Positions 1 to 23,165 of a DNA stretch of 36,113 nucleotides are shown one piece after another. The notes under the pieces are model-generated. The model saw only the letters and a list, made by a program, of their open reading frames with translations. It had not been told where the DNA came from and searched no databases. Location of the stretch: assembly GCA_045595105.1 (NCBI GenBank), contig JAZNZV010000114.1:1-36113 (forward strand), given 5' to 3'. Every line of letters begins with the position of its first letter. Position 1 is the stretch's first letter. The DNA is from Eubacteriales bacterium (lineage in GTDB: Bacteria > Bacillota > Clostridia > Oscillospirales > SIG627). Made by a program: the position numbers and the translations under genes.

Positions 1-273
1 GGGCTTGTTTGTATAAATTCTCGGAACAATGAATATTTTGTCCTTTACCTTTTCCTGAACCTCACGAAGTCTTAAAATATAGTCGATAACGCTGTCCTCG
101 TTGTCTGCAGAGCAGGGACCGATAACGAGAACGAGCTTGTCTGTCTTTCCTGCGAAAATGCTCTTCAGCTCACAAGCCCTTTTTGCCACAACCTCTTCAA
201 GGTCGTGAGAAAGGGGATAAAGCTCTTTTACCTCCTGAGGGATAGGGAGTTTTCTTTCAAAAATCATACTCAT
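1..273 (-). CDS. 3-deoxy-7-phosphoheptulonate (DAHP) synthase, class I-alpha type, N-terminal part only (gene runs off the left edge)
   Basis: Reverse translation from the ATG at 273-271 gives MSMIFERKLPIPQEVKELYPLSHDLEEVVAKRACELKSIFAGKTDKLVLVIGPCSADNEDSVIDYILRLREVQEKVKDKIFIVPRIYTNKP. The VIGPCS and PRIYxxKP blocks match the AroF/AroG/AroH family. SD GAAAGAAGGA lies at 281-290. Absent from the ORF track because it is truncated. Confidence 0.85.
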   Translation of the reverse strand, partial: MSMIFERKLPIPQEVKELYPLSHDLEEVVAKRACELKSIFAGKTDKLVLVIGPCSADNEDSVIDYILRLREVQEKVKDKIFIVPRIYTNKP

Positions 274-290
274 TGTTTTGTCCTTCTTTC

Positions 291-326
291 ATAAAAATAA
301 GCCTCACCCGAAGCTACGAGTGAGGC
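291..326 (-). terminator. Intrinsic terminator/attenuator hairpin immediately upstream of the DAHP synthase SD
   Basis: Minus-strand RNA reads GCCUCACUCG-UAGCUU-CGGGUGAGGC: a 10-bp stem including one G-U pair, with a 6-nt loop (301-326). It is followed by UUAUUUUUAU (291-300). Confidence 0.7.
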
Positions 327-350
327 TGAAAAATTTTAAAAGTCAAAAAC

Positions 351-449
351 TTAATGTCTCACAGGTAACCTTTGCACGCCGAAATAAGCACAGTAAAAAA
401 ACACTGCGCTAAAATAAAAAAAGAAGCCTGCAAAAAGTGTTGAGAACAT
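351..449 (-). CDS. Candidate 32-codon Phe/Tyr-rich leader peptide (MFSTLFAGFFFYFSAVFFYCAYFGVQRLPVRH)
   Basis: ATG at 449-447 and TAA at 353-351. SD AAAGGA (464-459) sits 9 nt upstream. The peptide has 9 Phe and 3 Tyr codons out of 32. It lies between a consensus promoter and the terminator hairpin. Too short for the ORF track. Confidence 0.45.
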   Translation of the reverse strand: MFSTLFAGFFFYFSAVFFYCAYFGVQRLPVRH

Positions 450-483
450 CTGTCTTTTTCCTTTCATTCATTTGATGTGCATA

Positions 484-512
484 ATTATACTCCCGAGAGT
501 AGTCTTTGTCAA
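484..512 (-). promoter_or_regulatory. Sigma-A type promoter for the DAHP synthase leader
   Basis: Minus strand reads TTGACA (512-507), a 17-nt spacer, then TATAAT (489-484). Both hexamers are perfect consensus. Confidence 0.75.
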
Positions 513-528
513 TAGGTTTTTTGAAAAA

Positions 529-1281
529 TTAAAAAGTTTTTTTAGGTCGGTAGGCGATATACTCCACGTCGGAGAGCTTGGCACGTTCAGTCATGGCGCC
601 TTTCACCTGACTGTGAAGCTTTTCACGGCGTTCTCTTTTGCTGAGAGAGGGGTCGGGATAGAACGGACCGTCTATAAAGACCGTCATTTTCGGTCTTTTC
701 ATAAAACGCCTTTTCTGATATGTTGACGTAAAGGCAAAAACGGGGGCATTCTCTTTTATGGGAAACTGAAAAGAAGCATCCGAAAAGGGGCGTATATCCT
801 TCATATATTCCCACACGTGGGCTTCGGGGTAAACGGCGATGGGATAGCCCTCATTATATCTTCCCGAAACAGCCGACGAAAATGCAGGCATTTGCTTGAA
901 GGCTTCGGGGAGGGGAATAGCCCCAATAAAGGGAAGTAGCTTCCCTATTATGGGGATACCTAAATTTGCAGGGGAAACGATAGCGAAAAACCTTTTCGGG
1001 AAAGAGATAAGTGCAGGTAAAAATACGTCGCCTATGGGCTGAGTATGATTGCCGAAAAGAAAATATCGCTCACACTCCCTCACCTTTTCTTTACCTACTA
1101 TTTTTGCGTGTAAAACAAGCTTTAAATATATTGCTCCAAGCACAAATATAAGGTAGTAAAGAAAGTTTGTAAAAAAAACCGTGCCTCTTATATACTTGTA
1201 ATCTTCGGGTATTTTATAGTCTTGACACGAGCTTGTAGTGAAGTCATCCTCAAAGGAGGAGTAAAAGCGTGTCTCTTTCAT
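529..1281 (-). CDS. Lysophospholipid (PlsC-type) acyltransferase family protein
   Basis: 250-aa ORF with an N-terminal hydrophobic segment. FGNHTQPIGD (histidine acyltransferase block) and AVYPEAHVW (PEG-like block) are present. Its ATG overlaps the upstream stop as ATGA. Confidence 0.6.
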   Translation of the reverse strand: MKETRFYSSFEDDFTTSSCQDYKIPEDYKYIRGTVFFTNFLYYLIFVLGAIYLKLVLHAKIVGKEKVRECERYFLFGNHTQPIGDVFLPALISFPKRFFAIVSPANLGIPIIGKLLPFIGAIPLPEAFKQMPAFSSAVSGRYNEGYPIAVYPEAHVWEYMKDIRPFSDASFQFPIKENAPVFAFTSTYQKRRFMKRPKMTVFIDGPFYPDPSLSKRERREKLHSQVKGAMTERAKLSDVEYIAYRPKKTF

Positions 1282-2093
1282 ATCACAACGTCGTCCTCTT
1301 CAAAGGTATAGTCAAGCTTTTTGTGATATATTTCCTCATAAGCCTTCACCTTCATTTCATAGTCCTTGAAGGCAAGCTCCCGACAGTTTTCGCTCACACT
1401 CTTTTCGGGGTGGGGGAAAAGTACACCGAGCACGTGTAGCGTGTGACATATTTTCCCATTTTCTTTTCTTATCTCCACAAAGCAGGAGATAATAGGGGAA
1501 AAGAGCTTTGAGGCGAAGTAGTAAGCTCCCTCCATAACGGGTCTCGGCTTGCGGTAGCCACTCCACATTTCACGCTCGGGGTAGATGAGAACGCACTCAC
1601 CGTTATCTAAAAGCTTTTTCAAAGTGGGAGTAAAGCTTTTTTGCATATAGTGAAGATTGTCGGTAATGGGAAGGGTGTCGGCATAGTTCATGAGAAAACC
1701 GATAATACCCGTCATGGCAAAATTAGTCTCCTCGCATACTATATTAAGCCTCTTTTTACCTATCCGACGTGACAGTAGCCTTGGAGCGGTGTTCTCGGTG
1801 GGGCTGAAGTGGTTAGAGGTGATAATGGCACCGCCCTTGAAGCTTTCAAGCTTTTCAAGTCCCTTTATTTCGGTGCTCTTCGTAATTACAGAGGTAAGAA
1901 CGCTTGCAAGCCTCCGAGCGGTCACGTTCTTTATTTTATAGGACAGTGTTCCTCTTTTTTGTAAGTAACCGAACACGATTTTGTCCTTTTCTTCTCTTGT
2001 AAGAATTGGGTCGTGAAGCTCCACCTTTCGGTGAAAGTCACCCTCGGCTACTGCTTTTTTTATGTTCTCAATGACCTTTTCTCTGTCCGTCAT
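1278..2093 (-). CDS. Lysophospholipid (PlsC-type) acyltransferase family protein, second paralogue
   Basis: 271-aa ORF with ITSNHFSPTEN (HX4E/D-type block) and LIYPEREMW (PEG-like block). ATGA overlaps occur at both ends. Confidence 0.55.
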   Translation of the reverse strand: MTDREKVIENIKKAVAEGDFHRKVELHDPILTREEKDKIVFGYLQKRGTLSYKIKNVTARRLASVLTSVITKSTEIKGLEKLESFKGGAIITSNHFSPTENTAPRLLSRRIGKKRLNIVCEETNFAMTGIIGFLMNYADTLPITDNLHYMQKSFTPTLKKLLDNGECVLIYPEREMWSGYRKPRPVMEGAYYFASKLFSPIISCFVEIRKENGKICHTLHVLGVLFPHPEKSVSENCRELAFKDYEMKVKAYEEIYHKKLDYTFEEDDVVI

Positions 2094-3040
2094 AGAATAA
2101 CTCTCGCTCCGCTTTCAATAATTTTTTTGAAGGTGATATCTTCTTTTGGAATTTCACTGCCACGCTTTAAAAGTAGCTCAAGACACTTTCTGTCAGCCTC
2201 TTTCTTTTCGTCGGTGTAGCCTGCCTTGTGTTCTCTTATCTCCTCGATAAATCCGCTGTCCTCGGCATAATGCCAGAACGGGGCGTCATATTGCACGTTG
2301 TCATAGCACCAAGGCTTTGAAAAAAGATTGTAGTGAATGATGCCCGTGTCCTCTCTCTCGGGGGTGTTTTCCTCGGGCATCACGTCCCAGCGTGAGTCGA
2401 GATACTTTATTTTGCCACGGCATATGGCATTGAGGTAATCTTGGTCGGGTGCGATGCAGTCAAAGTGATAGGTAGACAGCAGGGATAGAAAATGGCTTGT
2501 AAAGCCCTTCTCACGAAGAAGCGCAAGGTTCATAAGAAGGACTCCCGAGTTTATATACTCGCTCTTCTTTATGCCAAAGCTCTCTTCCATGTAATAGATA
2601 AGCTCGGGCACCTTCGCCACCGATAAATCCGAGCAGGCACCGATAAGGCAGTCTCCAAGGTCGGTATCGAAAAGCTTTGCAATATCGTCTGTCACTATAA
2701 CGTCGCTGTCGATGTAGATAGCACGGTCAAGCTCAGGGAACATCTCGGGAATGAACAGTCTGAAATAGATAGTCAGCGTAAAGTAGTCGCAACGAAGTCT
2801 GTTGGACATTCTGTCGGTTATCAGGTCATATCCTCTCGTCATAGGGATAAACTCTATTTTGAAATTCTCTTTTTCGAGAGCCTTTATTTTTTTCTGATTT
2901 TCCTCTGATACCTTCTCGTGAAGAACGTATGCCTTGTAGGAGCGAGTGGGATTGGAATTTTTTATAGCGGAATTCAGCGCCACCGCAAGGTAGGGGGCGT
3001 AGCTGTTGTCTATGGTGAAAAAAACGGGTATTGTGTTCAT
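2090..3040 (-). CDS. Glycosyltransferase family 8 protein
   Basis: 316 aa. The N-terminus is IPVFFTIDNSYAPYLAVALNSAIKNS. IYIDSDVIV (DxD), NSGVLLMNL and APDQDYLN are typical GT8 blocks (LPS galactosyl/glucosyltransferase, GspA-like). Confidence 0.85.
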   Translation of the reverse strand: MNTIPVFFTIDNSYAPYLAVALNSAIKNSNPTRSYKAYVLHEKVSEENQKKIKALEKENFKIEFIPMTRGYDLITDRMSNRLRCDYFTLTIYFRLFIPEMFPELDRAIYIDSDVIVTDDIAKLFDTDLGDCLIGACSDLSVAKVPELIYYMEESFGIKKSEYINSGVLLMNLALLREKGFTSHFLSLLSTYHFDCIAPDQDYLNAICRGKIKYLDSRWDVMPEENTPEREDTGIIHYNLFSKPWCYDNVQYDAPFWHYAEDSGFIEEIREHKAGYTDEKKEADRKCLELLLKRGSEIPKEDITFKKIIESGARVIL

Positions 3041-3831
3041 TTCAGTATCTCCTTTTCACTTTCTTTCAGTTCGTCATATAGGTCGTCAAATCGGTATTCC
3101 TTTAAAACCGAGTGCATCTTCTCTATCTGCCAGGGCTTGACCGATATTTTTCCCTTCAAGGAAAAGCAGGTGGTGAAGTGTCGGAAAACGGTGTCCTCCC
3201 TCAGCGCTTTTTGCTCGTTGTAGCACCGTGGGAGAAGTATTTTGCGCTTTACCTCACGGTTTAGCGCCGACTGGTCTGGCATGAACATTTTTTTCGTTTT
3301 GCAACGCTCACGGCACCTTTCAAAAAGTCCCGACTTCCTTATTTCGTCAAGATTTAGGAAAAGCACTCCCGAGTTCATATAGCTCATAGTAAAGGGTGCT
3401 CTTCTGAAAAAGTACTTGCCATATCGGTCAAGGACTCCCGCAACCTCTATTCCCGACATATCAAGGTTGAGGTTCAGAGGGGCAGTGCAGATAACGTCGG
3501 CATCAAGGTAGAGTATTTCATCGGGAAGAGACGTTACCCTGTCGGCAAAAAGCCTGAGCATGCAAGCGGGTGTAAAACGTGTACGGCTGTTCTTAATGGG
3601 AAAATCTTTTTTAAACTCTTCGGTTATATCTATGAGGGTAACCTTGTTTTGCGGGTTCTTTTCCTTCAGCTTCTCTTCAAGCCTTGTGGCGAAGTCCCTG
3701 TCAATTCCCTTCATTTCATAAAAAGAGGTGAGTATGTAGATGCTAAGCTCATCGTTGTAGCGTGAAAGAGAGAGGGCGGACATAATTATCCCCTCTTTTA
3801 TTCCACTGTCACCCGAATAAAGGATATTCAT
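3037..3831 (-). CDS. Glycosyltransferase family 8 protein
   Basis: 264 aa with LYLDADVIC (DxD), NSGVLFLNL and MPDQSALN. SD GGGAGGTG lies upstream. First gene of a four-gene ATGA-coupled operon. Confidence 0.8.
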   Translation of the reverse strand: MNILYSGDSGIKEGIIMSALSLSRYNDELSIYILTSFYEMKGIDRDFATRLEEKLKEKNPQNKVTLIDITEEFKKDFPIKNSRTRFTPACMLRLFADRVTSLPDEILYLDADVICTAPLNLNLDMSGIEVAGVLDRYGKYFFRRAPFTMSYMNSGVLFLNLDEIRKSGLFERCRERCKTKKMFMPDQSALNREVKRKILLPRCYNEQKALREDTVFRHFTTCFSLKGKISVKPWQIEKMHSVLKEYRFDDLYDELKESEKEILK

Positions 3832-4070: not shown

Positions 4071-4712
4071 ATGGAAGATATAAAGCAAAACGTGTCTGCC
4101 AATATAGCAGAGCTGAGAATTCTTCGTGGCATGACGCAAACCGAGCTTGCCGAAAAGCTCAGTTATTCCGATAAAGCGGTTTCCAAATGGGAGAGAGGGG
4201 AGTCTATCCCCGATATAACCGTGCTTTGTAAAATTGCAGAGATTTTTGAGGTCAGTCTCGACTATCTTGTAGAGAAGGAGCACCCCGTAAAGCCTCTGCC
4301 CGAGGAAAAGGAGATGACCCGAATGGAGAAGCTCTCCCTTCGTCCTCAGTACAATCCTACTCTCAACCATTATCTTATTATGGGGATAAGTATTTTCTCG
4401 GTGTTGCTCCTTGCGACTATCGTGTTCGTGGCAGTAAATATCGTGATGGATAACCCGAGACTGGACTGGCTTTCTTTTATATATGCAGTTCCCGCATCTA
4501 TTATTATATGGCTGGTCTTTAATTCGGTATGGTTCAATCCGAGACTGAATTTTATTATAGTCTCCCTTCTCATATGGTCGGTGCTCGCTGTTATATACTT
4601 TACACTTCTCGCCTTTAACTACAACGTGCTCATTATATTCTCCCTTGGAATTCCCGCACAGATAATCGTCTATATGTGGTCAAGGATAAGCTTCAATCCA
4701 AATAAGAAATAG
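4071..4712 (+). CDS. XRE-family helix-turn-helix regulator fused to a C-terminal multi-pass membrane domain
   Basis: The N-terminus NIAELRILRGMTQTELAEKLSYSDKAVSKWERGESIPDITVLCKIAEIFEVSLDYLV is a classic HTH_3 domain. The C-terminal ~110 aa form about 4 hydrophobic helices. Confidence 0.85.
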   Translation: MEDIKQNVSANIAELRILRGMTQTELAEKLSYSDKAVSKWERGESIPDITVLCKIAEIFEVSLDYLVEKEHPVKPLPEEKEMTRMEKLSLRPQYNPTLNHYLIMGISIFSVLLLATIVFVAVNIVMDNPRLDWLSFIYAVPASIIIWLVFNSVWFNPRLNFIIVSLLIWSVLAVIYFTLLAFNYNVLIIFSLGIPAQIIVYMWSRISFNPNKK

Positions 4713-4758: not shown

Positions 4759-6390
4759 TTAATTCCCAACTCTCGTTTTTCTCACCTTATCACGAAGCTT
4801 CAGTATCTCCGAGGGGGAGACCGACAGCTCGTCAATTCCCATTTCAAGGAAGCTTTCAGTCATATTCAGGTCCCCTGCCAGCTCTCCGCATATACCTATC
4901 CAGCCACCTTTTTTGTGGATACTGTCTGCTGACATTTTTATAAGCCTCATTATACCCTCGTGATAGGGGTCGAAGAATTCCTCAATATTGGGATTTTGTC
5001 TGTCGCAGGCGAGAGTGTACTGGGACAGGTCGTTTGTGCCGATGCTGAAAAAGTCGAAAAGGGTGGCGAGCTTATCGCTGATAAGAGCGGCGGCAGGTGT
5101 TTCTATCATTATGCCAAGCTCTACGTCACGGCTGTACGGAACGCCACTTTTGTCAAGCTCCGCCTTGACTTCATTCACTATATCTATTATCCTTTCGCCT
5201 TCCCAGTAGTTTGTCACCATGGGGAACATTATACCAAGACTTCCGAATTTTGATGCCGAAAGGAGAGCTCTTAGCTGAGCCTTCAGAATTTCGGGCCTTT
5301 TCAGACAAAGCCTTAACCCCCTCAGCCCGAGAGCGGGGTTCTCCTCTTCGTCAAGGGAGAAATACCCCACCTTTTTGTCGGCACCTATATCGAGGGTGCG
5401 TATGATGACTTTTTTACCCGACATTGCCACAAGCACCTTTTTGTATGCCTCGAATTGCTCCTCCTCCCTCGGGAAGGTGTCCTTGTCAAGATAGAGAAAC
5501 TCACTTCTGAAAAGTCCGATGCCCCCTGCATCGCTTGCAAGCACTGCCCCTATATCCTCTGTGCCCTGAATGTTGGCATAGAGGTTTATTTTTTTGCCGT
5601 CAAGAGTAACGTTGTCCTTGCCACGAAGCTTTTTTAGAAGCTCTGTTTTTTCTTTGTTTTCGTTTTCCTTCTCACGTATCTTTATTACGGTTTCGCTGTC
5701 GGGCTCAACGAAAATCTCACCTGCTCTGCCGTCTACCGCAAGGAGGTCTCCCTCCTTTACGTTGAGAAGGAAGGAGTCTCCCACCCCGATAACGGCGGGA
5801 ATGTTCATGTTTCGGGCAAGGATTGCCGTGTGAGAGTTTGCCGAGCCGTGAGTTGTTATAAAGCCGAGAATTTTGTCTTTGTCAAAGAGCACCGTCTCGG
5901 AGGGGGTCAAGTCTCGGGCACAGATAATGGAAGGTCGCTCAAGGGCGTCACTGCCTCTTGTCTCGCTAAGGGAGAGAATAAGCCTTTCGGAAATATCCTT
6001 CACGTCAATGGCACGGGCTTTCATATAGTGGTCGTCCATAGATGAAAACATATGAGAAAAGTTCTCTGCCGTCACCGATATGGCGTATTCAGCATTTACG
6101 GTCTGGTGCACTATTATCCGCCTTACCGATGCGTTAAAGTCCTCGTCGTCAAGCATCATAAGGTGTATCTGAAAGATTTCAGCACCCGTCTCTCCCACCT
6201 CTACAAGTGCCTTTTCATATATTTTCTGTAATTCCACGGCACTTTTTTCCTTAGCCCTCTCAAAGCGCAAAAGCTCCTTTTCAGGGTCCTTTACTGCAAT
6301 GCGCTTTATCTTTAGCTCCTCTTTTTTATATATGACGGCAGGACCGATGGCAGTGCCTCCGCATACACCTTTTCCAATAAATTTAAGCAT
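4759..6390 (-). CDS. ptsI: Phosphoenolpyruvate-protein phosphotransferase (PTS enzyme I)
   Basis: 543 aa. GSANSHTAILARNMNIPAV carries the phospho-histidine region. GTNDLSQYTLA and WIGICGELAG carry the catalytic Cys region. Adjacent to HPr. Confidence 0.97.
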   Translation of the reverse strand: MLKFIGKGVCGGTAIGPAVIYKKEELKIKRIAVKDPEKELLRFERAKEKSAVELQKIYEKALVEVGETGAEIFQIHLMMLDDEDFNASVRRIIVHQTVNAEYAISVTAENFSHMFSSMDDHYMKARAIDVKDISERLILSLSETRGSDALERPSIICARDLTPSETVLFDKDKILGFITTHGSANSHTAILARNMNIPAVIGVGDSFLLNVKEGDLLAVDGRAGEIFVEPDSETVIKIREKENENKEKTELLKKLRGKDNVTLDGKKINLYANIQGTEDIGAVLASDAGGIGLFRSEFLYLDKDTFPREEEQFEAYKKVLVAMSGKKVIIRTLDIGADKKVGYFSLDEEENPALGLRGLRLCLKRPEILKAQLRALLSASKFGSLGIMFPMVTNYWEGERIIDIVNEVKAELDKSGVPYSRDVELGIMIETPAAALISDKLATLFDFFSIGTNDLSQYTLACDRQNPNIEEFFDPYHEGIMRLIKMSADSIHKKGGWIGICGELAGDLNMTESFLEMGIDELSVSPSEILKLRDKVRKTRVGN

Positions 6391-6399
6391 AATTTCCCC

Positions 6400-6657
6400 T
6401 TAAAGCGTCTCTTCAAAAAAACGTTTTATAGAAGCTGTTGCCTCTTTTTCGTCCTCTCCCGTCACCTTGACTTTTACCTCGTCTCCCTTCTTTATTCCAA
6501 GGGACATGAGCATCATAAGTCTTGACGCATTTACCTCTTTTCCGCCCTTTTCGATAATTACCTCGCTCTTCCATTCCTTTGCAAGGGAGGAGAGCTTTCC
6601 TGCAGGACGGGCGTGTAGTCCTATCTCATCCTTTATGATATAGCTGAACTCTTTCAT
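6400..6657 (-). CDS. ptsH: Phosphocarrier protein HPr
   Basis: 85 aa. GLHARPAGKL contains His15. KEVNASRLMMLMSLG contains the Ser46 region. Confidence 0.95.
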   Translation of the reverse strand: MKEFSYIIKDEIGLHARPAGKLSSLAKEWKSEVIIEKGGKEVNASRLMMLMSLGIKKGDEVKVKVTGEDEKEATASIKRFFEETL

Positions 6658-8681
6658 TTCTTAGTCACCTCTGCAATTTCGTCGCCGGGGTTTACTTCTC
6701 CGTCCTTCAATACCTTTATTTCAAATTCGTCTGAGTTTACTATGACCATGGGGGTTGTGAGCTTGTAACCGCTTTTCCTTATACCGTCCATATCGAAGGT
6801 AATGAGAAGGTCGCCCTTCTTCACACTGTCACCGCTCTTTACGTGAGGCTTGAAGTGAAGACCTTTAAGCTTTACGGTGTCAAGACCGATGTGGAGCAGT
6901 ATTTCTTCCCCTTGCTGAGAAATTATATTAACTGCGTGACAGGTGTCAAAGACGCTTTCCACTCTGCCGTCACAGGGGGAGAACAGCTTACCCTCATCAG
7001 GTAAAAACGCTACGCCTCGCCCAAGTACACCGCTACTGAACGCCTCGTCCTCTACCTTGTCAAGGGGTACCACCTTACCCTTTATGGGGGAGAACAGTCG
7101 GGGAGGGTGACTTTTGTCAAGGTAGTCCTCAAGATTTGATTTTACTACCGACACCTGAGGTCCGTAGATTATCTGAACGCCCTGACCCTTCTTGATAACG
7201 CCCGACGCACCGCTTTCACGAAGAGAGGCTTCGTCAACCTTGCTCGGGTCCTTGACGGTTACACGCAGTCTTGTGGCACAGCTGTCAAGGTCGGAAATGT
7301 TTTCCTTTCCTCCAAGCCCCTTCAGAATGAGAGGGCTCTTGTTGTCGGCTTCGTGCTTTTTCGTGAGATAGTCAGCCTTGGTGTAAAGCTTTGACTCCTC
7401 TCCGTCCTCTTCTCTTCCGGGAGTCTTGAAGTCAAATTTCTTTATAAGGAAATAGAAAACGAAATAGTAGATAACTGCATATACGAGACCAACTATAACC
7501 ACCCATATCCAATTTGTCTTGGAGTTTCCTTGAAGTATGCCGAAAAGGGTTAAGTCGATAACGCCTCCCGAGAAGGTCATACCAACGCCCACGTTAAATA
7601 TATGCATGAGCATATAGGAAAGTCCTGCCAGAACGCAGTGCACCACGTACATGAGGGGGGCAACAAAGAGGAAGGTGAATTCAAGGGGCTCGGTGATACC
7701 CGTCAGCACCGATGTGAGAGCCGCCGAGAGAAGAAGACCTCCCACAAGCTTTTTCTTTTCGGGCTTTGCCAGTCGGTACATGGCGAATGCCGCCGCAGGA
7801 AGACCGAATATCATAAAGGGGAACTTGCCCGACATAAAGCGTGTAGCCGATACCGAAAAGACCTCGGTGGACTTTGAAGCAAGCTCTGCAAAGAAGATGT
7901 TCTGTGCACCTTGAATAAGCTCTCCGTCAATAAGAAGAGCACCGCCAAGCTCGGTTTGCCAGAAGGGCATATAGAAAACGTGGTGAAGCCCGAAGGGAAT
8001 GAGTGCTCGCTCAATAATACCATATATCCAGGTGCCGATATACCCCGAGTTCAATACAAGACTGCCCAGCGCCGCTATTCCCGACTGAACGGGCTGCCAT
8101 ATATAGAACATAATAACGCCTACTAAAAGGTAGACAAGAGAGGATATAATGGGAACGAATCTGGTTCCTCCAAAGAAGGAGAGAACGGTGGGAAGCTTTA
8201 TCTTATAAAATCTGTTGTGAAGTGCCGCCACACCAAGACCTACGATAATACCTCCGAAAACTCCCATTTGCAGGGTAGTTATACCGAGAGTTGTCGTAGT
8301 GGTGTTCTCGCCCATAGCCTCAACGCCACCCGAAAAACGAATAAGTGTGGAAATGGCGGTGTTCATTATGAGATAGGAGATGGCACCCGACAGGGCTGCA
8401 ACCTCCTTTTCCTTTTTTGCCATACCGATGGCAACACCCATAGCAAATAGCAGTGGAAGATTGTCGAAAACAACGCTTCCTGTTCTTGCCATGATGTCAA
8501 GGATCGTGTAGAGAATGCCTCCCTCGGAGATGAGACCTGTGAGATTGTACTCTTCAAGGGTGGTGGGGTTGGTAAAGGATGAGCCGATACCAAGAAGCAG
8601 ACCCGCAACGGGAAGAAGAGCAATAGGTAGCATAAACGACCTGCCTACTCTTTGCAGGACAGAAAAAATCTTATCTTTCAA
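6654..8681 (-). CDS. ptsG: PTS glucose/N-acetylglucosamine-family transporter, fused EIICBA
   Basis: 675 aa with an N-terminal multi-TM EIIC. EIIB is marked by DSCATRLRV. EIIA-Glc is marked by DTCHAV and LLHIGLDTV. It uses a TTG start 8 nt after GGAGGT and has an ATGA overlap with ptsH. Sugar specificity (Glc versus GlcNAc) cannot be told from sequence. The symbol is given for the B. subtilis-like ptsGHI order. Confidence 0.9.
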   Translation of the reverse strand: MKDKIFSVLQRVGRSFMLPIALLPVAGLLLGIGSSFTNPTTLEEYNLTGLISEGGILYTILDIMARTGSVVFDNLPLLFAMGVAIGMAKKEKEVAALSGAISYLIMNTAISTLIRFSGGVEAMGENTTTTTLGITTLQMGVFGGIIVGLGVAALHNRFYKIKLPTVLSFFGGTRFVPIISSLVYLLVGVIMFYIWQPVQSGIAALGSLVLNSGYIGTWIYGIIERALIPFGLHHVFYMPFWQTELGGALLIDGELIQGAQNIFFAELASKSTEVFSVSATRFMSGKFPFMIFGLPAAAFAMYRLAKPEKKKLVGGLLLSAALTSVLTGITEPLEFTFLFVAPLMYVVHCVLAGLSYMLMHIFNVGVGMTFSGGVIDLTLFGILQGNSKTNWIWVVIVGLVYAVIYYFVFYFLIKKFDFKTPGREEDGEESKLYTKADYLTKKHEADNKSPLILKGLGGKENISDLDSCATRLRVTVKDPSKVDEASLRESGASGVIKKGQGVQIIYGPQVSVVKSNLEDYLDKSHPPRLFSPIKGKVVPLDKVEDEAFSSGVLGRGVAFLPDEGKLFSPCDGRVESVFDTCHAVNIISQQGEEILLHIGLDTVKLKGLHFKPHVKSGDSVKKGDLLITFDMDGIRKSGYKLTTPMVIVNSDEFEIKVLKDGEVNPGDEIAEVTKK

Positions 8682-19066: not shown

Positions 19067-20812
19067 TTATTTGGCATCAGTAAGTCTGCCCTTGATTTTC
19101 AGTGACAACAGGTGGAAGTCACCGTTGTTTTCGTCACTTTTTAAGATGATTTTAAAGCCACGACAGCGCTTGAGCTTTATTCTCTTTGAAAGCCTGACGG
19201 GGGTAATGGCAGTCTTAAAGCTGAATAAATCAAAATAAATGCTGTCAAAGTCAAACACTTTATAATCAAGCCCAACGCTATGGGCAATAGAAGTAGCATT
19301 GTCGGATACCCAAAGTATATCGAAGGAGGTTGCGCTGACGGGAAGAAGCTCAAATTCTACCGAATGTATGTTTTTGGTGTCAAGTCCCGATATATCCTCG
19401 TAGCCTGTTTCCCAATGAAAATCAATTTTCTTGTCACCGTCAAGGCTCTCGGAAATGAAACGGCAAAGACTTCCGTCATTTCTTTGAAAATAAACGTCGG
19501 AGGACGGTGCTTCGGTAAAGTATGCGGCATTCAGCCCCTCATAGTAATAATAAAGGTCAAGGGCGTAGTTATAAACGTAAAGCTTATCACCGCTCCATAA
19601 ATAGAGCTCACTCATGCTCTCTCTGTCGAAGAGAGAAATACCCCTTTCGCTTATTTCGTGAAGTCCCGCTTTGATGCGTTCTCCTATGTTTTCAGCGTTC
19701 CTTTCATCACGAATACTTGTAGATACCCAGCGGTACAAGCTACCGCTATGAACGGTCAGGGGAGTGTTCAGCGCAAGGACAGCGCACCCCTCCTCACTGC
19801 AACCGACAGTTGACGACAGAGTTCTGACGGGGAAGGAGAGATATTCCTTTCCGTTGGCATCGCTCTTCGTCTCAATGTAAGAATAATAGGCATCGGCTTC
19901 AGTGAATATGAGAAGCCTGTCATAATGCCTCAAAATAGAGGTCACCGCATTGCCCGACAGCGTCTTGTTAAAGGAAAGCTCGGGAAAATACTCCATTCCC
20001 GACACGCCGTCGTGAACTCCCGAATATCTGTAAATTGCAGGATTTTCCTTATCTCCCCACAAAAAGATACGGGTATCGTTGTCTCCTCCCCAAAGAGTGG
20101 CATATCTCATTTTGTGTATGAGCTCCTCCCCCTCCGACGGCTTTTTTGAGTACCTTACCTCAAAAGCATTCGGGTCGGTAGAGCTTGGTTCGTTTTTCAA
20201 AGAGACAATACCGCTTTCAAGGTCAACGGTATAGGTGTTTGTCGCAAGTGCTTCTCCGAGAACACTGACACTTATGACCTCGTCAATATCCTTTTCGGCA
20301 AGGATAAGGTCTCGGTGGTCCGAGTCCATGGTAAAGGACTGACGCCTTTCGGAAGTGAGAAGATTTATTTCTTCAAAGGCGATGCCACCGCCGTTAACGT
20401 CTGTGGATATGGCGACGAGAGGAACGTAAGGCTGAAGGTCTTTCACCTCTTCTCCCTGCCATACCTTTATTTTCGTTCCGTCGAGGAAATAAAGACTGTC
20501 TCCCAAGGGAAGGAAGGTGACCCTTCCACTGTCACTTTCAAGCGCTCCCACAGGGGTACTCTCCCCGTTATACCGACGGTAAACGGTGCTTCCTGCTACG
20601 AAGAAGATGCTGTCCTTGAAGGCGAAGACCCCTCGTGGCACACCCTCAAACCTTCCCAAAACCTCAAAGCCTTCTCTCAGGGCAAGGGTGTAGCTTTCGG
20701 TAACTCTCAGATTTTTCATACGAGGACTTTCTCCCACTCTCAGAACGGTGTCCGAGAAGGGCTCGTGGAGACCGAGAAACTTGTGTATTTCAGTTCTGAA
20801 GTTTTTTGCCAT
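19067..20812 (-). CDS. Beta-rich repeat protein, possible tail hub/nozzle (function inferred only)
   Basis: 581 aa with SD GAGGTGA. It has recurrent blade-like motifs: TVYRRYNG, LYFLDGTKIKVW, AIYRYSG, GSLYRWVS, KLYVYNY, VYFQRNDGS. No Walker A and no TM segment. Confidence 0.35.
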   Translation of the reverse strand: MAKNFRTEIHKFLGLHEPFSDTVLRVGESPRMKNLRVTESYTLALREGFEVLGRFEGVPRGVFAFKDSIFFVAGSTVYRRYNGESTPVGALESDSGRVTFLPLGDSLYFLDGTKIKVWQGEEVKDLQPYVPLVAISTDVNGGGIAFEEINLLTSERRQSFTMDSDHRDLILAEKDIDEVISVSVLGEALATNTYTVDLESGIVSLKNEPSSTDPNAFEVRYSKKPSEGEELIHKMRYATLWGGDNDTRIFLWGDKENPAIYRYSGVHDGVSGMEYFPELSFNKTLSGNAVTSILRHYDRLLIFTEADAYYSYIETKSDANGKEYLSFPVRTLSSTVGCSEEGCAVLALNTPLTVHSGSLYRWVSTSIRDERNAENIGERIKAGLHEISERGISLFDRESMSELYLWSGDKLYVYNYALDLYYYYEGLNAAYFTEAPSSDVYFQRNDGSLCRFISESLDGDKKIDFHWETGYEDISGLDTKNIHSVEFELLPVSATSFDILWVSDNATSIAHSVGLDYKVFDFDSIYFDLFSFKTAITPVRLSKRIKLKRCRGFKIILKSDENNGDFHLLSLKIKGRLTDAK

Positions 20813-20822
20813 CTATATCACC

Positions 20823-21221
20823 TCAATACACGTTCTTGACCGAGGAGTGAGAGGCTACCGAGTAACCCTTCACTACTCTCTCTTCACTTTCTCTGAAAAG
20901 GCTCATGAAGTAGTCGGCACGCACGCTGTCCTCCTCAAGTATCATAACCGACGCCAGATAAAACGGCATCACTCCCGAGGTGAGGGCATCGTGGAGAGGA
21001 ATAGTGTCGTCGAGGGCTTTTATCCCCTCAAAGGGAGTATCAAGGTCCCTTATTTTCTTTCCTCTTATAATGCACTCCGAGGGCAGGAGAAGAGTTATGA
21101 TAGTGTTGATTATTTCAGGGGCATTTTTTTCAAAGTCGGTGACGTCGGTATGGTATGCACCCACTCCGTCACGCTCATTTATAAGGGATAGCGCTCGGGT
21201 GTAAACCTGTCGTGCTGTCAT
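20823..21221 (-). CDS. Small structural protein, possible head-tail adaptor (inferred from position)
   Basis: 132 aa from the ATG at 21221 (SD GGGAGGAG 5 nt upstream). This start lies 47 nt inside the 3' end of the portal-like ORF. The track start at 21299 is unsupported. Confidence 0.35.
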   Translation of the reverse strand: MTARQVYTRALSLINERDGVGAYHTDVTDFEKNAPEIINTIITLLLPSECIIRGKKIRDLDTPFEGIKALDDTIPLHDALTSGVMPFYLASVMILEEDSVRADYFMSLFRESEERVVKGYSVASHSSVKNVY

Positions 21222-22761
21222 AAGACTCCTCCCTTCGCATTTTACAGTCTTCGATAAGGGCTTCCTTTGACGCAATGTACCCCTCGGGCAATCTTTCAAG
21301 ATACTGCTCTAAGGTGATGAGTCCTGCAGTCAAGAGCTTTTCAAGAGTGGCAAGACTTGCCGCCTCACTCCAATATCCCGTCATACCTGCCGAAACGTTG
21401 CAGGAGAAGATGACGTCACGGTATACTTCAACGTCTGCCATCTCTCCTCTCAGCTCTCCCTTGTCACGCCACATCATCATGCGGTGTCGGTCGTAGTAAT
21501 TCAGAATATAGTCCACCCAGATAAGACCCAGCTCCTCAATCGCCATATAAAGCGCTCTCTTCTGAATTTCAAGAGGCACCGACGATGACTCCTGAAGAGC
21601 AATTATCGCCGAGGTGTTGTTGGCATCAACGTTACCAAGAGCCGCATCGGTTGCTCCCATAAGCTCTCGTGTCATGTTCATGGTAAGACTTATTACGTCG
21701 AGAAATCCCGACTGCATGACACCGGGGGAGAGCACCTCGGCAACGCTGTCAACGGGACCGTTGACACCAATTGCCTCACCTACCTCGTTGGTCCATTCGT
21801 CAATGACGTTCTGGTTGTATACCACCTTTGAGAAGGACACGTTTATCATGTGCTTCATTACCATGGCGAACGCCTTATTGATATATATCTGATTTTCAAT
21901 AAGACCTGTTCCCGCTGCAGTTCCGTGATAGGAATTCTTGGTAGAGTCCCAGTTCATAAGAACAATGGGGTAAAGGGAGAGCTTGGTATCAACCTCATCG
22001 CAAATAACGGTGTTTTTTGTGCTCTTGCGATAGTGTATTCTTCCGTCCTTTCGGTAAAGCTTTATAACGTAGGTACACTTGGTGTCGGAAAGCTCCTTTT
22101 TCCCGTTGTCTCCCGCTTCGTCGGTGGTGTCGCTGTCAGCGGTTATTCTTTCAACGTCCTTTACGCCATTAATCCTTGCCTCTTCTCTCAGCTCTTCCAC
22201 AAGTCCTCTTCCCGAAATGAGAATGTAGGGCTGTGACTGAACCTCAGAGGTATTGACGTCTCCGAAGAAAACGTTGGTGGAGTCAAGAAGCTTTGTGGCA
22301 AAATCCCCTCTGTACTTCTGAGACGTTCGCTTGTTTCTGTCCCAGTAAACGTAAAGGAACATATCACCGCTGAGAGCCGCATCCTTAACACCCTCGTAGA
22401 GAAGGGCAGTCAGGTTGTCCTTTTCAAATCGGTAGTTAAGGTAAGAGGATATGAGGTTACATACTCTTGTAAGCTCATCTCTCGTCTCCTTCTTGTAGAT
22501 GACCCCTGCACTCTCAGCATCAATCTTCAAGGCAACCTTCGCCGACATAATATTCGATACGAAATAGCCGATTACTCTCTTGAAGATATTGAAGACGGGT
22601 GTGGGAAGTCCTCCGCTGACTACTCCGTTCCATTGGTCGCCACGCCAGAAACGTTCGTTTTTACTCACGCTTTCGTAAAAGCCAATGCTCCTGTTGTAGT
22701 CTCTGCCCTTTTCAAGAAGCTTCCAGTCTTCAGAGAGGACTTCTTTTGTTTTCATTTTCAA
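21175..22761 (-). CDS. Portal-like protein
   Basis: 528 aa and the first large gene of the structural operon. The NERFWRGDQWNG...LPTPVFNIFKRVI region and the central GATDAALGNVDANNTSAIIALQESS region resemble portal families. No Walker A, so it is not a terminase. The start is TTG at 22761 or ATG at 22755. Confidence 0.55.
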   Translation of the reverse strand: MKMKTKEVLSEDWKLLEKGRDYNRSIGFYESVSKNERFWRGDQWNGVVSGGLPTPVFNIFKRVIGYFVSNIMSAKVALKIDAESAGVIYKKETRDELTRVCNLISSYLNYRFEKDNLTALLYEGVKDAALSGDMFLYVYWDRNKRTSQKYRGDFATKLLDSTNVFFGDVNTSEVQSQPYILISGRGLVEELREEARINGVKDVERITADSDTTDEAGDNGKKELSDTKCTYVIKLYRKDGRIHYRKSTKNTVICDEVDTKLSLYPIVLMNWDSTKNSYHGTAAGTGLIENQIYINKAFAMVMKHMINVSFSKVVYNQNVIDEWTNEVGEAIGVNGPVDSVAEVLSPGVMQSGFLDVISLTMNMTRELMGATDAALGNVDANNTSAIIALQESSSVPLEIQKRALYMAIEELGLIWVDYILNYYDRHRMMMWRDKGELRGEMADVEVYRDVIFSCNVSAGMTGYWSEAASLATLEKLLTAGLITLEQYLERLPEGYIASKEALIEDCKMRREESYDSTTGLHPSAIPYK

Positions 22762-22999: not shown

Positions 23000-23025
23000 T
23001 GACATGGCACTGCCAAAGACTGCCA
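22988..23025. promoter_or_regulatory. Cluster of ACTGCCA/TGGCA motifs (candidate operator)
   Basis: ACTGCCA occurs at 22988-22994, 23009-23015 and 23019-23025. The 11-bp palindrome TGGCACTGCCA is at 23005-23015. The first copy overlaps the -35/spacer of the phage-like operon promoter. Confidence 0.5.
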
Positions 23026-23165
23026 TCTTTTTGGAAGGTGGTAAAAAGTGCTATTTTATAGGGGCTTTGAGGATTTTTAACTTTCATTTTTTTGTAAGTC
23101 TTTACCTCTTTTGCATAAATTTTCACCTATTTGAGAATACTGTCGCCGAGAAAGGTGTTGACTTT

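What the first reader, a model, noticed from the sequence alone, without database searches (positions are those of the whole stretch)
274..512. Phe/Tyr-rich 32-codon leader ORF plus terminator upstream of DAHP synthase: possible ribosome-mediated attenuator in a Firmicute
A perfect TTGACA-17-TATAAT promoter (484-512, minus strand) drives a leader of about 200 nt ahead of the DAHP synthase gene. The leader contains SD AAAGGA and, 9 nt later, an ORF (449-351) that encodes MFSTLFAGFFFYFSAVFFYCAYFGVQRLPVRH. That peptide has 9 Phe and 3 Tyr codons out of 32, including the run FFFYF. A hairpin lies within the ORF (AGCGCAGU, 8-nt U-rich loop, ACUGUGCU). A 10-bp GC-rich terminator stem with a U-tract starts 24 nt after the ORF stop and ends just before the DAHP synthase SD. 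This is the architecture of enterobacterial leader-peptide attenuators such as pheL-pheA. Here it precedes the first committed enzyme of aromatic amino-acid synthesis, in a lineage where T-box leaders are the usual solution. I see no T-box or specifier features.
Caveats: T-runs produce Phe codons trivially in AT-rich spacers. By eye I found only a weak 5-bp candidate antiterminator pairing (GUGAG/CUCAC).
Basis: partly seen in the sequence, partly recalled or inferred. Interest (0 to 1): 0.65.

Follow-up and report, generated by a model that had tools for sequence, protein, structure and literature searches.

The report
Phe/Tyr leader-peptide attenuator of DAHP synthase
A 32-codon upstream reading frame packed with phenylalanine and tyrosine codons, followed by a terminator, most likely lets an uncultured gut Clostridia bacterium turn on the first enzyme of aromatic amino-acid synthesis only when those amino acids run short; this is a well-known kind of switch, here in a new, clade-restricted version.

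Summary
A perfect TTGACA-17-TATAAT promoter (512-484, minus strand) is followed by an SD, a 32-codon ORF (449-351; 9 Phe and 3 Tyr codons), an 11-bp terminator (327-300) with a U-tract, and the DAHP synthase start (273).

No Rfam family matches, T-box included. The same leader occurs in only three other sequences (L001, L002, L083) and in several gut-metagenome variants.

All of these copies keep:
- the AUG;
- the reading frame through codon 31;
- a nearby stop codon.

Indels lie only outside the ORF. Every change in codons 9-21 is a synonymous third-position transition.

It has 12 bp (371-358 with 324-311) and uses the terminator's 5' arm and loop. It shows one compensatory G-C to A-U change. 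The leader ORF's own SD and AUG pair with the stop-codon region and act as an anti-antiterminator.

In folding models, a ribosome at codons 27 to stop abolishes the antiterminator in all four sequences. Stalls at aromatic codons give a mixed result unless the start region is also occupied.

Verdict: a ribosome-mediated Phe/Tyr attenuator, confidence about 0.65, with no transcript data. Close precedents are C. glutamicum aroR-aroF and the Acholeplasma uORFC-13-1 motif. It is a new member of a known kind.

The parts
484..512 (-). Sigma-70-type promoter: -35 TTGACA (512-507), 17-nt spacer, -10 TATAAT (489-484). The start site is inferred to lie near 478.
   Evidence: 12 of 12 matches. The same perfect promoter with the CTATTGACAA context occurs in L001, L002 and L083.
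460..465 (-). Shine-Dalgarno GAAAGG of the leader ORF, 10 nt before the AUG.
   Evidence: It is invariant in WIN, L001 and L002, and in the loose ends of the metagenome variants. L083 has AGAGG instead. The DAHP gene uses a similar SD (GAAGGA).
351..449 (-). Leader ORF of 32 codons plus stop: MFSTLFAGFFFYFSAVFFYCAYFGVQRLPVRH. Aromatic codon clusters lie at 425-411 (FFFYF), 401-393 (FFY) and 386-381 (YF).
   Evidence: The frame, the AUG and a nearby stop are kept in L001, L002, L083 and the reconstructed variants.
441..466 (-). Region 1: SD, AUG and codons 1-3. This is the 5' strand of the outer helix and acts as the anti-antiterminator.
   Evidence: MFE and RNAalifold structures. Three pairs show changes on both sides.
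369..436 (-). Internal helices inside the ORF: a middle helix (436-425 with 380-369) and a 9-bp hairpin (410-387).
   Evidence: One compensatory U-A to C-G change occurs in the middle helix (L083). Hairpin changes keep the pairing (C-G to U-G, G-U to A-U).
337..371 (-). Region 2: the last ORF codons, the stop and the spacer. Positions 371-358 (AGGUUACCUGUGAG) form the 5' strand of the antiterminator. Positions 361-337 form the 3' strand of the outer helix with region 1.
   Evidence: UUACCUGUGAGA is invariant in every sequence and variant seen.
311..324 (-). Region 3: CUCAC UC GUAGCUU, comprising the terminator 5' arm and its loop. It pairs either with region 2 (antiterminator, 7+5 bp) or with region 4.
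   Evidence: In L002 the 3' arm diverged while this half stayed invariant. In L083 the loop change C to U is matched by G to A in region 2.
291..327 (-). Intrinsic terminator: an 11-bp stem (327-300), a 6-nt loop and the U-tract UAUUUUUAU (299-291).
   Evidence: -19.3 kcal/mol. It is present in L001 and in L002 (-13.2 kcal/mol).
1..290 (-). Regulated gene: SD GAAAGAAGGA (290-281) and the DAHP synthase CDS from ATG 273. The CDS runs off the window start. It is 342 aa in L001 and L002 and appears monocistronic there.
   Evidence: PF00793.

Best explanation
This is a ribosome-mediated (leader-peptide) transcription attenuator. It sets expression of a type-I DAHP synthase according to the supply of charged tRNA-Phe and tRNA-Tyr.

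How it is proposed to work:
1. Transcription starts near 478.
2. Untranslated leader: the SD/AUG region (region 1) pairs with the stop-codon region (region 2). This closes a long three-helix rod. Region 3 is then free to form the terminator with region 4, and the transcript ends at 299-291.
3. Translated, with plentiful Phe and Tyr: the ribosome reaches codons 27 to stop and sits on region 2. The terminator again forms.
4. Translated, with scarce Phe or Tyr: the ribosome stalls within codons 9-23. It melts the internal helices but leaves region 2 uncovered. The footprint at the last aromatic codon, F23, ends just before region 2. Region 2 pairs with the terminator's 5' arm and loop (12 bp), and RNA polymerase reads into the DAHP synthase gene.

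Shown in silico: the parts, the mutually exclusive pairings and their conservation.
Inferred: translation of the ORF, stalling, premature termination and the amino-acid response.
For: Anatomy:
- Consensus promoter, SD, ORF, terminator and gene are in the right order with no room for a second promoter.

Comparative evidence for translation:
- In L001, L002, L083 and the reconstructed metagenome variants the AUG stays at the same position, although codons 2-5 vary.
- The frame is open through codon 31.
- The stop varies in identity (UAA, UGA, UAG) and slightly in position (codons 32, 33 or 38).
- All indels lie outside 354-449.
- In codons 9-21 the five variable sites (codons 9, 10, 12, 14, 16) are all synonymous third-position transitions.
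- For the genome sequences alone, 4 of 4 changes in codons 6-23 are synonymous, p = 0.012 under a transitions-only null.

Structure:
- Leader fold z = -4.2, with an RNAalifold consensus.
- The antiterminator segment has -15 kcal/mol against -19.3 for the terminator. Its 12 pairs are kept in 93% of cells, with one G-C to A-U double change whose 3' partner lies in the terminator loop.
- In L002 the terminator's 3' arm mutated but the 5' arm and loop did not.

Modelling:
- With the A site at codons 27 to stop, the antiterminator probability is 0.00 in all four sequences.
- With the start region occupied, the antiterminator forms in WIN, L001 and L002, and likewise in L083.
- With the A site at F11/Y12 or Y22/F23, it is 0.86-1.0 in WIN and L001.

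Biological fit:
- The gene is the first committed step towards Phe and Tyr.
- The same logic is reported for aroR-aroF in C. glutamicum (PMC11802643) and proposed for aroF in Acholeplasma (PMC8632094).
Against: - There is no RNA evidence. Only DNA-type runs held the sequence.
- Only four real sequences plus approximate reconstructions are available, all closely related. Covariation is not statistically significant.
- Third codon positions of the ORF are 91% identical between WIN and L002, against 56% in the adjacent CDS. RNA-level constraint is therefore strong and could by itself keep the frame intact.
- A lone 28-nt footprint at codons 14-19 does not favour the antiterminator at equilibrium. 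The same holds almost anywhere in L002. The model needs a queued or initiating ribosome on region 1, or steric exclusion.
- Some aromatic codons are not conserved: F2, F6S, and Y22H or Y22P.
- A U-rich leader makes Phe codons cheap. The shuffle p-value is only 0.006.
Confidence: 0.65

Rival explanations
1. A translation-independent structured leader, such as a riboswitch, a protein-binding RNA or a tRNA-binding RNA, controls the same terminator. The ORF is then a by-product of a U-rich, structure-constrained sequence.
For: - The leader is unusually well folded.
- Its nucleotides are far more conserved than the synonymous sites of the neighbouring gene.
- The SD and AUG are themselves base-paired in the ground state.
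- Helices show a few compensatory changes.
Against: - There is no Rfam match, even at E up to 10.
- The unpaired loop carrying FFFYF changes only at synonymous sites.
- The AUG and a nearby stop are kept while the flanking bases vary.
- The stop is kept at or near the same position with three different stop codons.
- No conserved aptamer-like junction or internal loop is apparent beyond the codon run.
Confidence: 0.15
2. The ORF encodes a genuine small hydrophobic membrane peptide with its own terminator. DAHP synthase is then expressed by constitutive read-through, and the aromatic richness reflects a transmembrane segment rather than sensing.
For: - The core FFFYFSAVFFYCA.F..Q(K/R)LPVR is invariant at the amino-acid level in all sequences.
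- The peptide looks like a single transmembrane helix with a basic tail.
Against: - The peptide has no Pfam family and no homologue among 1.84 billion representative proteins, other than one more copy of this same leader.
- It is always glued to the same terminator, and where the sequence continues, to the DAHP synthase start.
- The conserved non-aromatic codons lie in RNA helices, which explains their conservation without any peptide function.
- No separate promoter for the DAHP gene is present.
Confidence: 0.1
3. The arrangement is a chance one: an ordinary 5' UTR with an incidental ORF and a hairpin, with no regulatory role.
For: U-rich spacers yield Phe codons easily. An ORF of at least 32 codons appears in 9% of shuffles.
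Against: - The leader is more conserved than the coding sequence next to it.
- It occurs in different genomic contexts: the upstream gene differs in WIN and L001 (acyltransferase) and in L002 (YitT-family); in L083 the upstream sequence differs too, but that gene was not identified.
- A strong terminator inside a 5' UTR is not neutral.
- An ORF with at least 12 aromatic codons arises in only 0.6% of shuffles.
Confidence: 0.05

Closest known systems
aroR-aroF leader-peptide attenuator of Corynebacterium glutamicum (Neshat et al. 2014, as summarised in PMC11802643)
   Same: A short leader ORF with Phe and Tyr codons (motif F-Y-F) lies upstream of a DAHP synthase gene. Read-through is enhanced by ribosome stalling under Phe limitation. 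The regulated enzyme and the logic are the same.
   Different: The phylum differs (Actinobacteria). No sequence relationship was tested or is expected. The leader here is longer (32 codons, 12 aromatic in three clusters). Here the anti-antiterminator strand is the leader's own SD and AUG.
uORFC-13-1 motif upstream of aroF in Acholeplasma and environmental sequences (Brewer et al. 2021, PMC8632094)
   Same: It has a promoter, RBS, start codon and a U-run coding for Phe, plus an extra base-paired element and an intrinsic terminator. It lies exclusively upstream of the DAHP synthase gene, in a Firmicute-related lineage and in unknown environmental organisms.
   Different: It is a candidate only, with no experiments. 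Its alignment is not available here. I therefore cannot say whether the present leader is a member, a relative or an independent invention. Rfam 15 gave no match of any kind.
pheL-pheA attenuator of E. coli and other gamma-proteobacteria
   Same: A Phe-codon-rich leader peptide is followed by terminator and antiterminator alternatives. Translation to the stop codon favours termination (PMC3082878 abstract; PMC11802643).
   Different: pheL has about 15 codons and regulates chorismate mutase/prephenate dehydratase, not DAHP synthase. No Rfam leader family matches here. The present leader also senses Tyr codons and has two extra helices inside the ORF.
Leader-peptide attenuators already reported in Firmicutes: the His leader upstream of hisS/hisZ paralogues in Bacilli (PMC2965389), and the Leu-rich attenuator peptide of the S. 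aureus ilv operon (PMC5794164, title and abstract)
   Same: They are amino-acid-specific leader peptides in a phylum where T-boxes dominate.
   Different: The amino acids, genes and sequences differ. None concerns aromatic synthesis in Clostridia.
T-box riboswitch
   Same: It is a terminator/antiterminator leader that reports tRNA charging, and is common in Firmicute amino-acid genes.
   Different: It senses uncharged tRNA directly and needs no translation. It has a specifier loop and a conserved T-box sequence. None is detected in the window or upstream of DAHP synthase in 40 related loci.

Membership tests
Ribosome-mediated (leader-peptide) transcription attenuator | A short ORF with its own SD and start codon lies in the 5' leader, downstream of the promoter. 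| tested here: met
   SD at 465-460 and AUG at 449, 32 codons. The AUG is conserved at the same position in all relatives and variants.
Ribosome-mediated (leader-peptide) transcription attenuator | The ORF is enriched in codons for the end-product amino acids of the regulated pathway, and these codons are conserved. | tested here: met
   12 of 32 codons are Phe or Tyr. Only 0.6% of shuffles reach this count. The core FFFYF..FFY is invariant and changes only synonymously. F6 and Y22 are not strictly kept.
Ribosome-mediated (leader-peptide) transcription attenuator | An intrinsic terminator lies between the leader ORF and the structural gene. | tested here: met
   An 11-bp stem at 327-300 plus a U-tract. 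It is present in L001 and L002.
Ribosome-mediated (leader-peptide) transcription attenuator | An antiterminator is mutually exclusive with the terminator. A ribosome at the end of the ORF covers its upstream strand, but a ribosome stalled at the regulatory codons does not. | tested here: inconclusive
   The 12-bp pairing of 371-358 with 324-311 is conserved, with one compensatory change. It is abolished in models with the A site at codons 27 to stop. Stalls at aromatic codons favour it only at some positions, unless region 1 is also blocked.
Ribosome-mediated (leader-peptide) transcription attenuator | Premature termination occurs in vivo and is relieved by starvation for the cognate amino acid, dependent on leader translation. 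| not testable with these tools
   No RNA runs hold the sequence. The organism is uncultured and known only from metagenome-assembled genomes.
Rfam amino-acid leader families (Phe, Leu, His, Thr, Trp leaders; leu/phe leader) and T-box | A match to the family covariance model. | tested here: not met
   cmscan found nothing at gathering score in the whole window. At E up to 10 in 1-900 it gave only spurious terminator-like hits such as Spot_42 and snoR15.
uORFC-13-1 motif (Brewer et al. 2021) | Sequence and structure consensus of the motif upstream of aroF. | not testable with these tools
   The verbal description fits: promoter, RBS, start, U-run for Phe, an extra helix, a terminator and aroF. 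However, no alignment or sequence is held.

The most novel reading that the evidence does not exclude
The element may be a recently born, genus-level attenuator with a 'two-key' design.

Two-key design:
- The anti-antiterminator strand is the leader ORF's own ribosome-binding site and start codon.
- Read-through would then need both ongoing initiation on the leader, which keeps region 1 occupied, and a downstream stall at Phe or Tyr codons.

Possible recent origin:
- The closest leaderless relatives (76-84% identical DAHP synthase) have a homologous-looking promoter about 55 nt from the ATG.
- In those relatives, TTCAGC and AAAGAAG are adjacent. In the window they flank the terminator hairpin.
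- The module may therefore have been inserted into a simple 5' UTR. If so, this would be a datable example of how an attenuator arises.
Probability: 0.3. Interest if true: 0.55.

Novelty: new member of a known kind. Interest (0 to 1): 0.4.

Why it matters
If confirmed, this would add an aromatic-amino-acid leader-peptide attenuator in Clostridia to a short list of such elements outside Proteobacteria and Actinobacteria. It would also supply a motif that is absent from Rfam, which helps annotate gut metagenome-assembled genomes.

The element is compact. Its regulatory codons sit in an unpaired loop, so they can be recoded without touching the structure. That makes it a clean test bed for how stalled and queued ribosomes choose between three competing helices.

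Its narrow distribution next to leaderless sister lineages offers a rare view of the gain or loss of an attenuator.

It does not change the general picture. The mechanism, and even its use on DAHP synthase, are already described elsewhere.

Tried and rejected
1. Rfam scans found no family, so T-box, riboswitch and known-leader readings were rejected. I ran gathering threshold on the whole window and E up to 10 on 1-900.
2. Two scans of JGI metagenome contigs with back-translated patterns of the peptide core found nothing useful. One gave 0 hits. The other gave two hits (L081, L082) that lie inside unrelated sequence next to a tRNA-like stretch and are chance matches.
With the DAHP N-terminus it returned only fragments at most 81% identical, none from the leader-bearing clade. 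With P0122 it returned only itself.
4. Exact look-ups of the upstream acyltransferase and of the 38-aa ORF found no record.
5. A screen of the 350 nt upstream of DAHP synthase in all 80 loci for short ORFs with at least 4 aromatic residues in 6 found the leader only in L001 and L002. The other hits are upstream-gene tails or terminator overlaps.
6. A search for RNA-seq runs found none usable. The L002-lineage runs added almost no variation.
7. My first antiterminator bracket string was misregistered by 2 columns. It was corrected.
8. P0121 from the representative search is a low-complexity repeat protein and was discarded.
9. I considered TRAP-like (G/U)AG repeats and a second promoter for the DAHP gene. 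No repeat pattern is seen by eye, and only 9-of-12 promoter-like sites are found.

Full report
**What is there**

- -35 TTGACA lies at 512-507, followed by a 17-nt spacer and -10 TATAAT at 489-484.
- SD GAAAGG lies at 465-460.
- The ORF runs from AUG 449 to UAA 353-351 and encodes MFSTLFAGFFFYFSAVFFYCAYFGVQRLPVRH, with 9 Phe and 3 Tyr.
- A hairpin lies inside the ORF. It has 9 bp (410-387) and a 6-nt loop, slightly different from the description.
- A terminator follows, with an 11-bp stem at 327-300 (-19.3 kcal/mol) and UAUUUUUAU.
- Next come the SD GAAAGAAGGA (290-281) and ATG 273 of a gene whose 91 visible residues match Pfam PF00793, DAHP synthase family I.
- The full gene is 342 aa in L001 and L002. 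It is followed there by unrelated genes, so it looks monocistronic.
- Upstream lie two acyltransferase and two GT8 glycosyltransferase genes.

**Is it more than chance?**

For the single sequence the evidence is only moderate.
- Among 5000 dinucleotide-preserving shuffles of the leader, 9% have an ATG ORF of at least 32 codons.
- Only 0.6% have an ATG ORF with at least 12 aromatic codons.
- The leader folds better than all 200 shuffles (z = -4.2).

**Known RNA families**

Rfam 15 gives nothing at gathering score anywhere in the 36-kb window. In 1-900 at E up to 10 it gives only terminator-shaped noise such as Spot_42 and snoR15. There is no T-box, no riboswitch and none of the curated amino-acid leaders.

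**Relatives**

A scan of one genome per GTDB species with the DAHP N-terminus returned 80 loci, mostly uncultured Clostridia, Acutalibacteraceae and Oscillospiraceae from animal guts.
- Only the two closest loci carry the leader: L001 (92% identity) and L002 (86%).
- The next relatives (L003-L011 and L014, 75-84%) have a promoter about 55 nt from the ATG and a short 5' UTR.
- More distant relatives place the gene inside operons.
- None of the first 40 loci has any Rfam element upstream of the gene.
- A phmmer search of 1.84 billion representative proteins with the 38-aa ORF found one real relative. P0122 is an over-extended 87-aa gene call whose last 32 residues are MMTVISAIFFFYFSAVFFYCAPFAMQKLPVRR.
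- The contig holding P0122, L083, shows the same perfect promoter, an SD, the ORF and the start of the terminator before it ends.
- Logan contigs from bovine, sheep and other gut metagenomes hold further variants. I rebuilt these approximately from the listed differences. Differences within about 10 nt of alignment ends are not listed, so these reconstructions are imperfect.

**Evidence that the ORF is read**

- In every sequence and variant the AUG is at the same position, although codons 2-5 vary (FSTL, LTNI, MTVI, LKKL, LNRI).
- The frame is open through codon 31.
- A stop follows at codon 33 as UAA, UGA or UAG, or at codon 32 or 38 in single variants.
- All indels fall just before the AUG or after the stop. 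None falls in 354-449.
- In codons 9-21 (FFFYFSAVFFYCA) the five variable sites are all synonymous third-position transitions, at codons 9, 10, 12, 14 and 16. By my own arithmetic, five of five falling on third positions has probability (1/3)^5, about 0.004.
- For the three genomes alone, 4 of 4 changes in codons 6-23 are synonymous. That gives p = 0.012 under a transitions-only null.
- Three of these sites lie in the unpaired loop that carries FFFYF, so RNA pairing does not explain them.
- As a caveat, third positions of the ORF are 91% identical between the window and L002, against 56% in the DAHP gene. The RNA itself is strongly constrained.
- As a second caveat, F6 and Y22 are replaced in some copies (F6S; Y22H or Y22P).

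**Alternative structures**

- Without a ribosome, the leader forms a long rod.
- The rod has an outer helix between the SD/AUG/codons 1-3 (466-441) and the stop-codon region plus spacer (361-337).
- It also has a middle helix (436-425 with 380-369) and the 9-bp hairpin. The terminator stands separately.
- The outer helix has three pairs changed on both sides.
- The middle helix has one U-A to C-G change, made in L083 by F6S together with a synonymous change in Q26.
- The antiterminator is much better than the 5 bp seen by eye. AGGUUAC..GUGAG (371-358) pairs with CUCAC..GUAGCUU (324-311), which is the terminator's 5' arm and its loop.
- This gives 12 bp, and the segment folds at -15 kcal/mol.
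- The antiterminator is kept in 93% of cells across five sequences.
- In L083 a G-to-A change in region 2 is matched by a C-to-U change in the terminator loop. That loop position has no role in the terminator itself.
- In L002 the 3' arm of the terminator diverged, weakening it to -13.2 kcal/mol. The 5' arm and loop stayed invariant, as expected if that half serves two partners.
- With so few sequences, none of the covariation measures is statistically significant.

**Ribosome modelling (28-nt footprint, transcript ending at the terminator loop, equilibrium)**

- With the A site at codons 27 to stop, the antiterminator core has probability 0.00 in all four sequences.
- With no ribosome it is 0.00-0.09 in WIN, L001 and L002, but 0.98 in L083.
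- With the A site at codons 2-8 it is near 1.
- At F11/Y12 and Y22/F23 it is 0.86-1.0 in WIN and L001.
- At codons 14-19, and almost throughout in L002, it is low, because the freed start region re-pairs with region 2.
- If the start region is also occupied by an initiating or queued ribosome, the antiterminator forms in WIN, L001 and L002.
- The design therefore fits the classical four-region logic, with the peculiarity that region 1 is the leader's own ribosome-binding site.
- Whether a single stalled ribosome suffices cannot be decided by folding.

**Mechanism proposed**

Confidence is about 0.65.
- Default: termination.
- Full translation to the stop: termination.
- Stalling at Phe or Tyr codons 9-23: antitermination and expression of DAHP synthase.

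Rivals:
- A translation-independent structured leader (0.15).
- A genuine small membrane peptide gene with its own terminator (0.10).
- Chance (0.05).

**Comparison with what is known**

- The kind is classical, as in pheL-pheA.
- The same enzyme is controlled this way in C. glutamicum, where the aroR leader with an F-Y-F motif lies upstream of aroF (PMC11802643).
- Brewer et al. 2021 described a candidate motif, uORFC-13-1. It comprises a promoter, RBS, start, a U-run for Phe, an extra helix and a terminator. It is found only upstream of aroF, in Acholeplasma and unidentified environmental sequences (PMC8632094).
- That description fits this leader well, but no alignment is held, so membership is untested.
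- Leader peptides in Firmicutes are also on record: His leaders in Bacilli (PMC2965389) and a Leu-rich peptide in S. aureus (PMC5794164).

I therefore rate this a new member of a known kind. It is absent from Rfam and confined to a small clade of gut Clostridia, and its interest is moderate.

Noticed in passing
L003-L011 and L014, about 130 nt before the DAHP ATG; window 262-545: Leaderless relatives share a promoter, CTATTGAAATTT-17-(G)GTGTAAAAT with a TG-extended -10, and a 5' UTR ..TTCAGCAAAGAAGTG... In the window, TTCAGC starts the terminator's 5' arm and AAAGAAGG follows the U-tract, as if the hairpin or the whole module had been inserted into such a UTR.
   Followed up: partly
window 465-467 and L002/L083 equivalents: An in-frame ATG 18 nt upstream of the conserved AUG would give a 38-aa ORF in the window and L001. 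In L002 this extension is closed by a UAA overlapping the AUG, and it is absent in L083. The 32-codon ORF is therefore the conserved unit.
   Followed up: yes
window 529-3831 (-): Four tightly packed genes with 4-nt overlaps: two PlsC-type acyltransferases (PF01553) and two family-8 glycosyltransferases (PF01501). No terminator is visible before the DAHP promoter.
   Followed up: partly
window 19067-22761 (-): An ORF at 21175-22761 matches the P22-like portal protein (PF16510). It sits next to a 581-aa ORF with no Pfam match, possibly a prophage remnant.
   Followed up: no
window 23004-30140 (+): A 2378-aa protein carries a GH94 catalytic domain and a glucoamylase-like domain, resembling cyclic beta-1,2-glucan synthases or large glucan phosphorylases.
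   Followed up: no
window 4759-8681 (-): PTS enzyme I lies beside a fused EIIC-EIIB-EIIA sugar permease, with a divergent HTH_3 regulator at 4071-4712.
   Followed up: no
L018-L028, upstream of the DAHP match: In many more distant relatives the DAHP synthase gene directly follows another gene whose product ends in ..RRA.FDKK, with only about 20-30 nt between them. The gene is therefore in an operon rather than behind its own leader. The upstream gene was not identified.
   Followed up: no
L019 4480-4716: A cobalamin riboswitch (RF00174) lies downstream of the DAHP synthase locus in one relative. It is unrelated to the finding.
   Followed up: no
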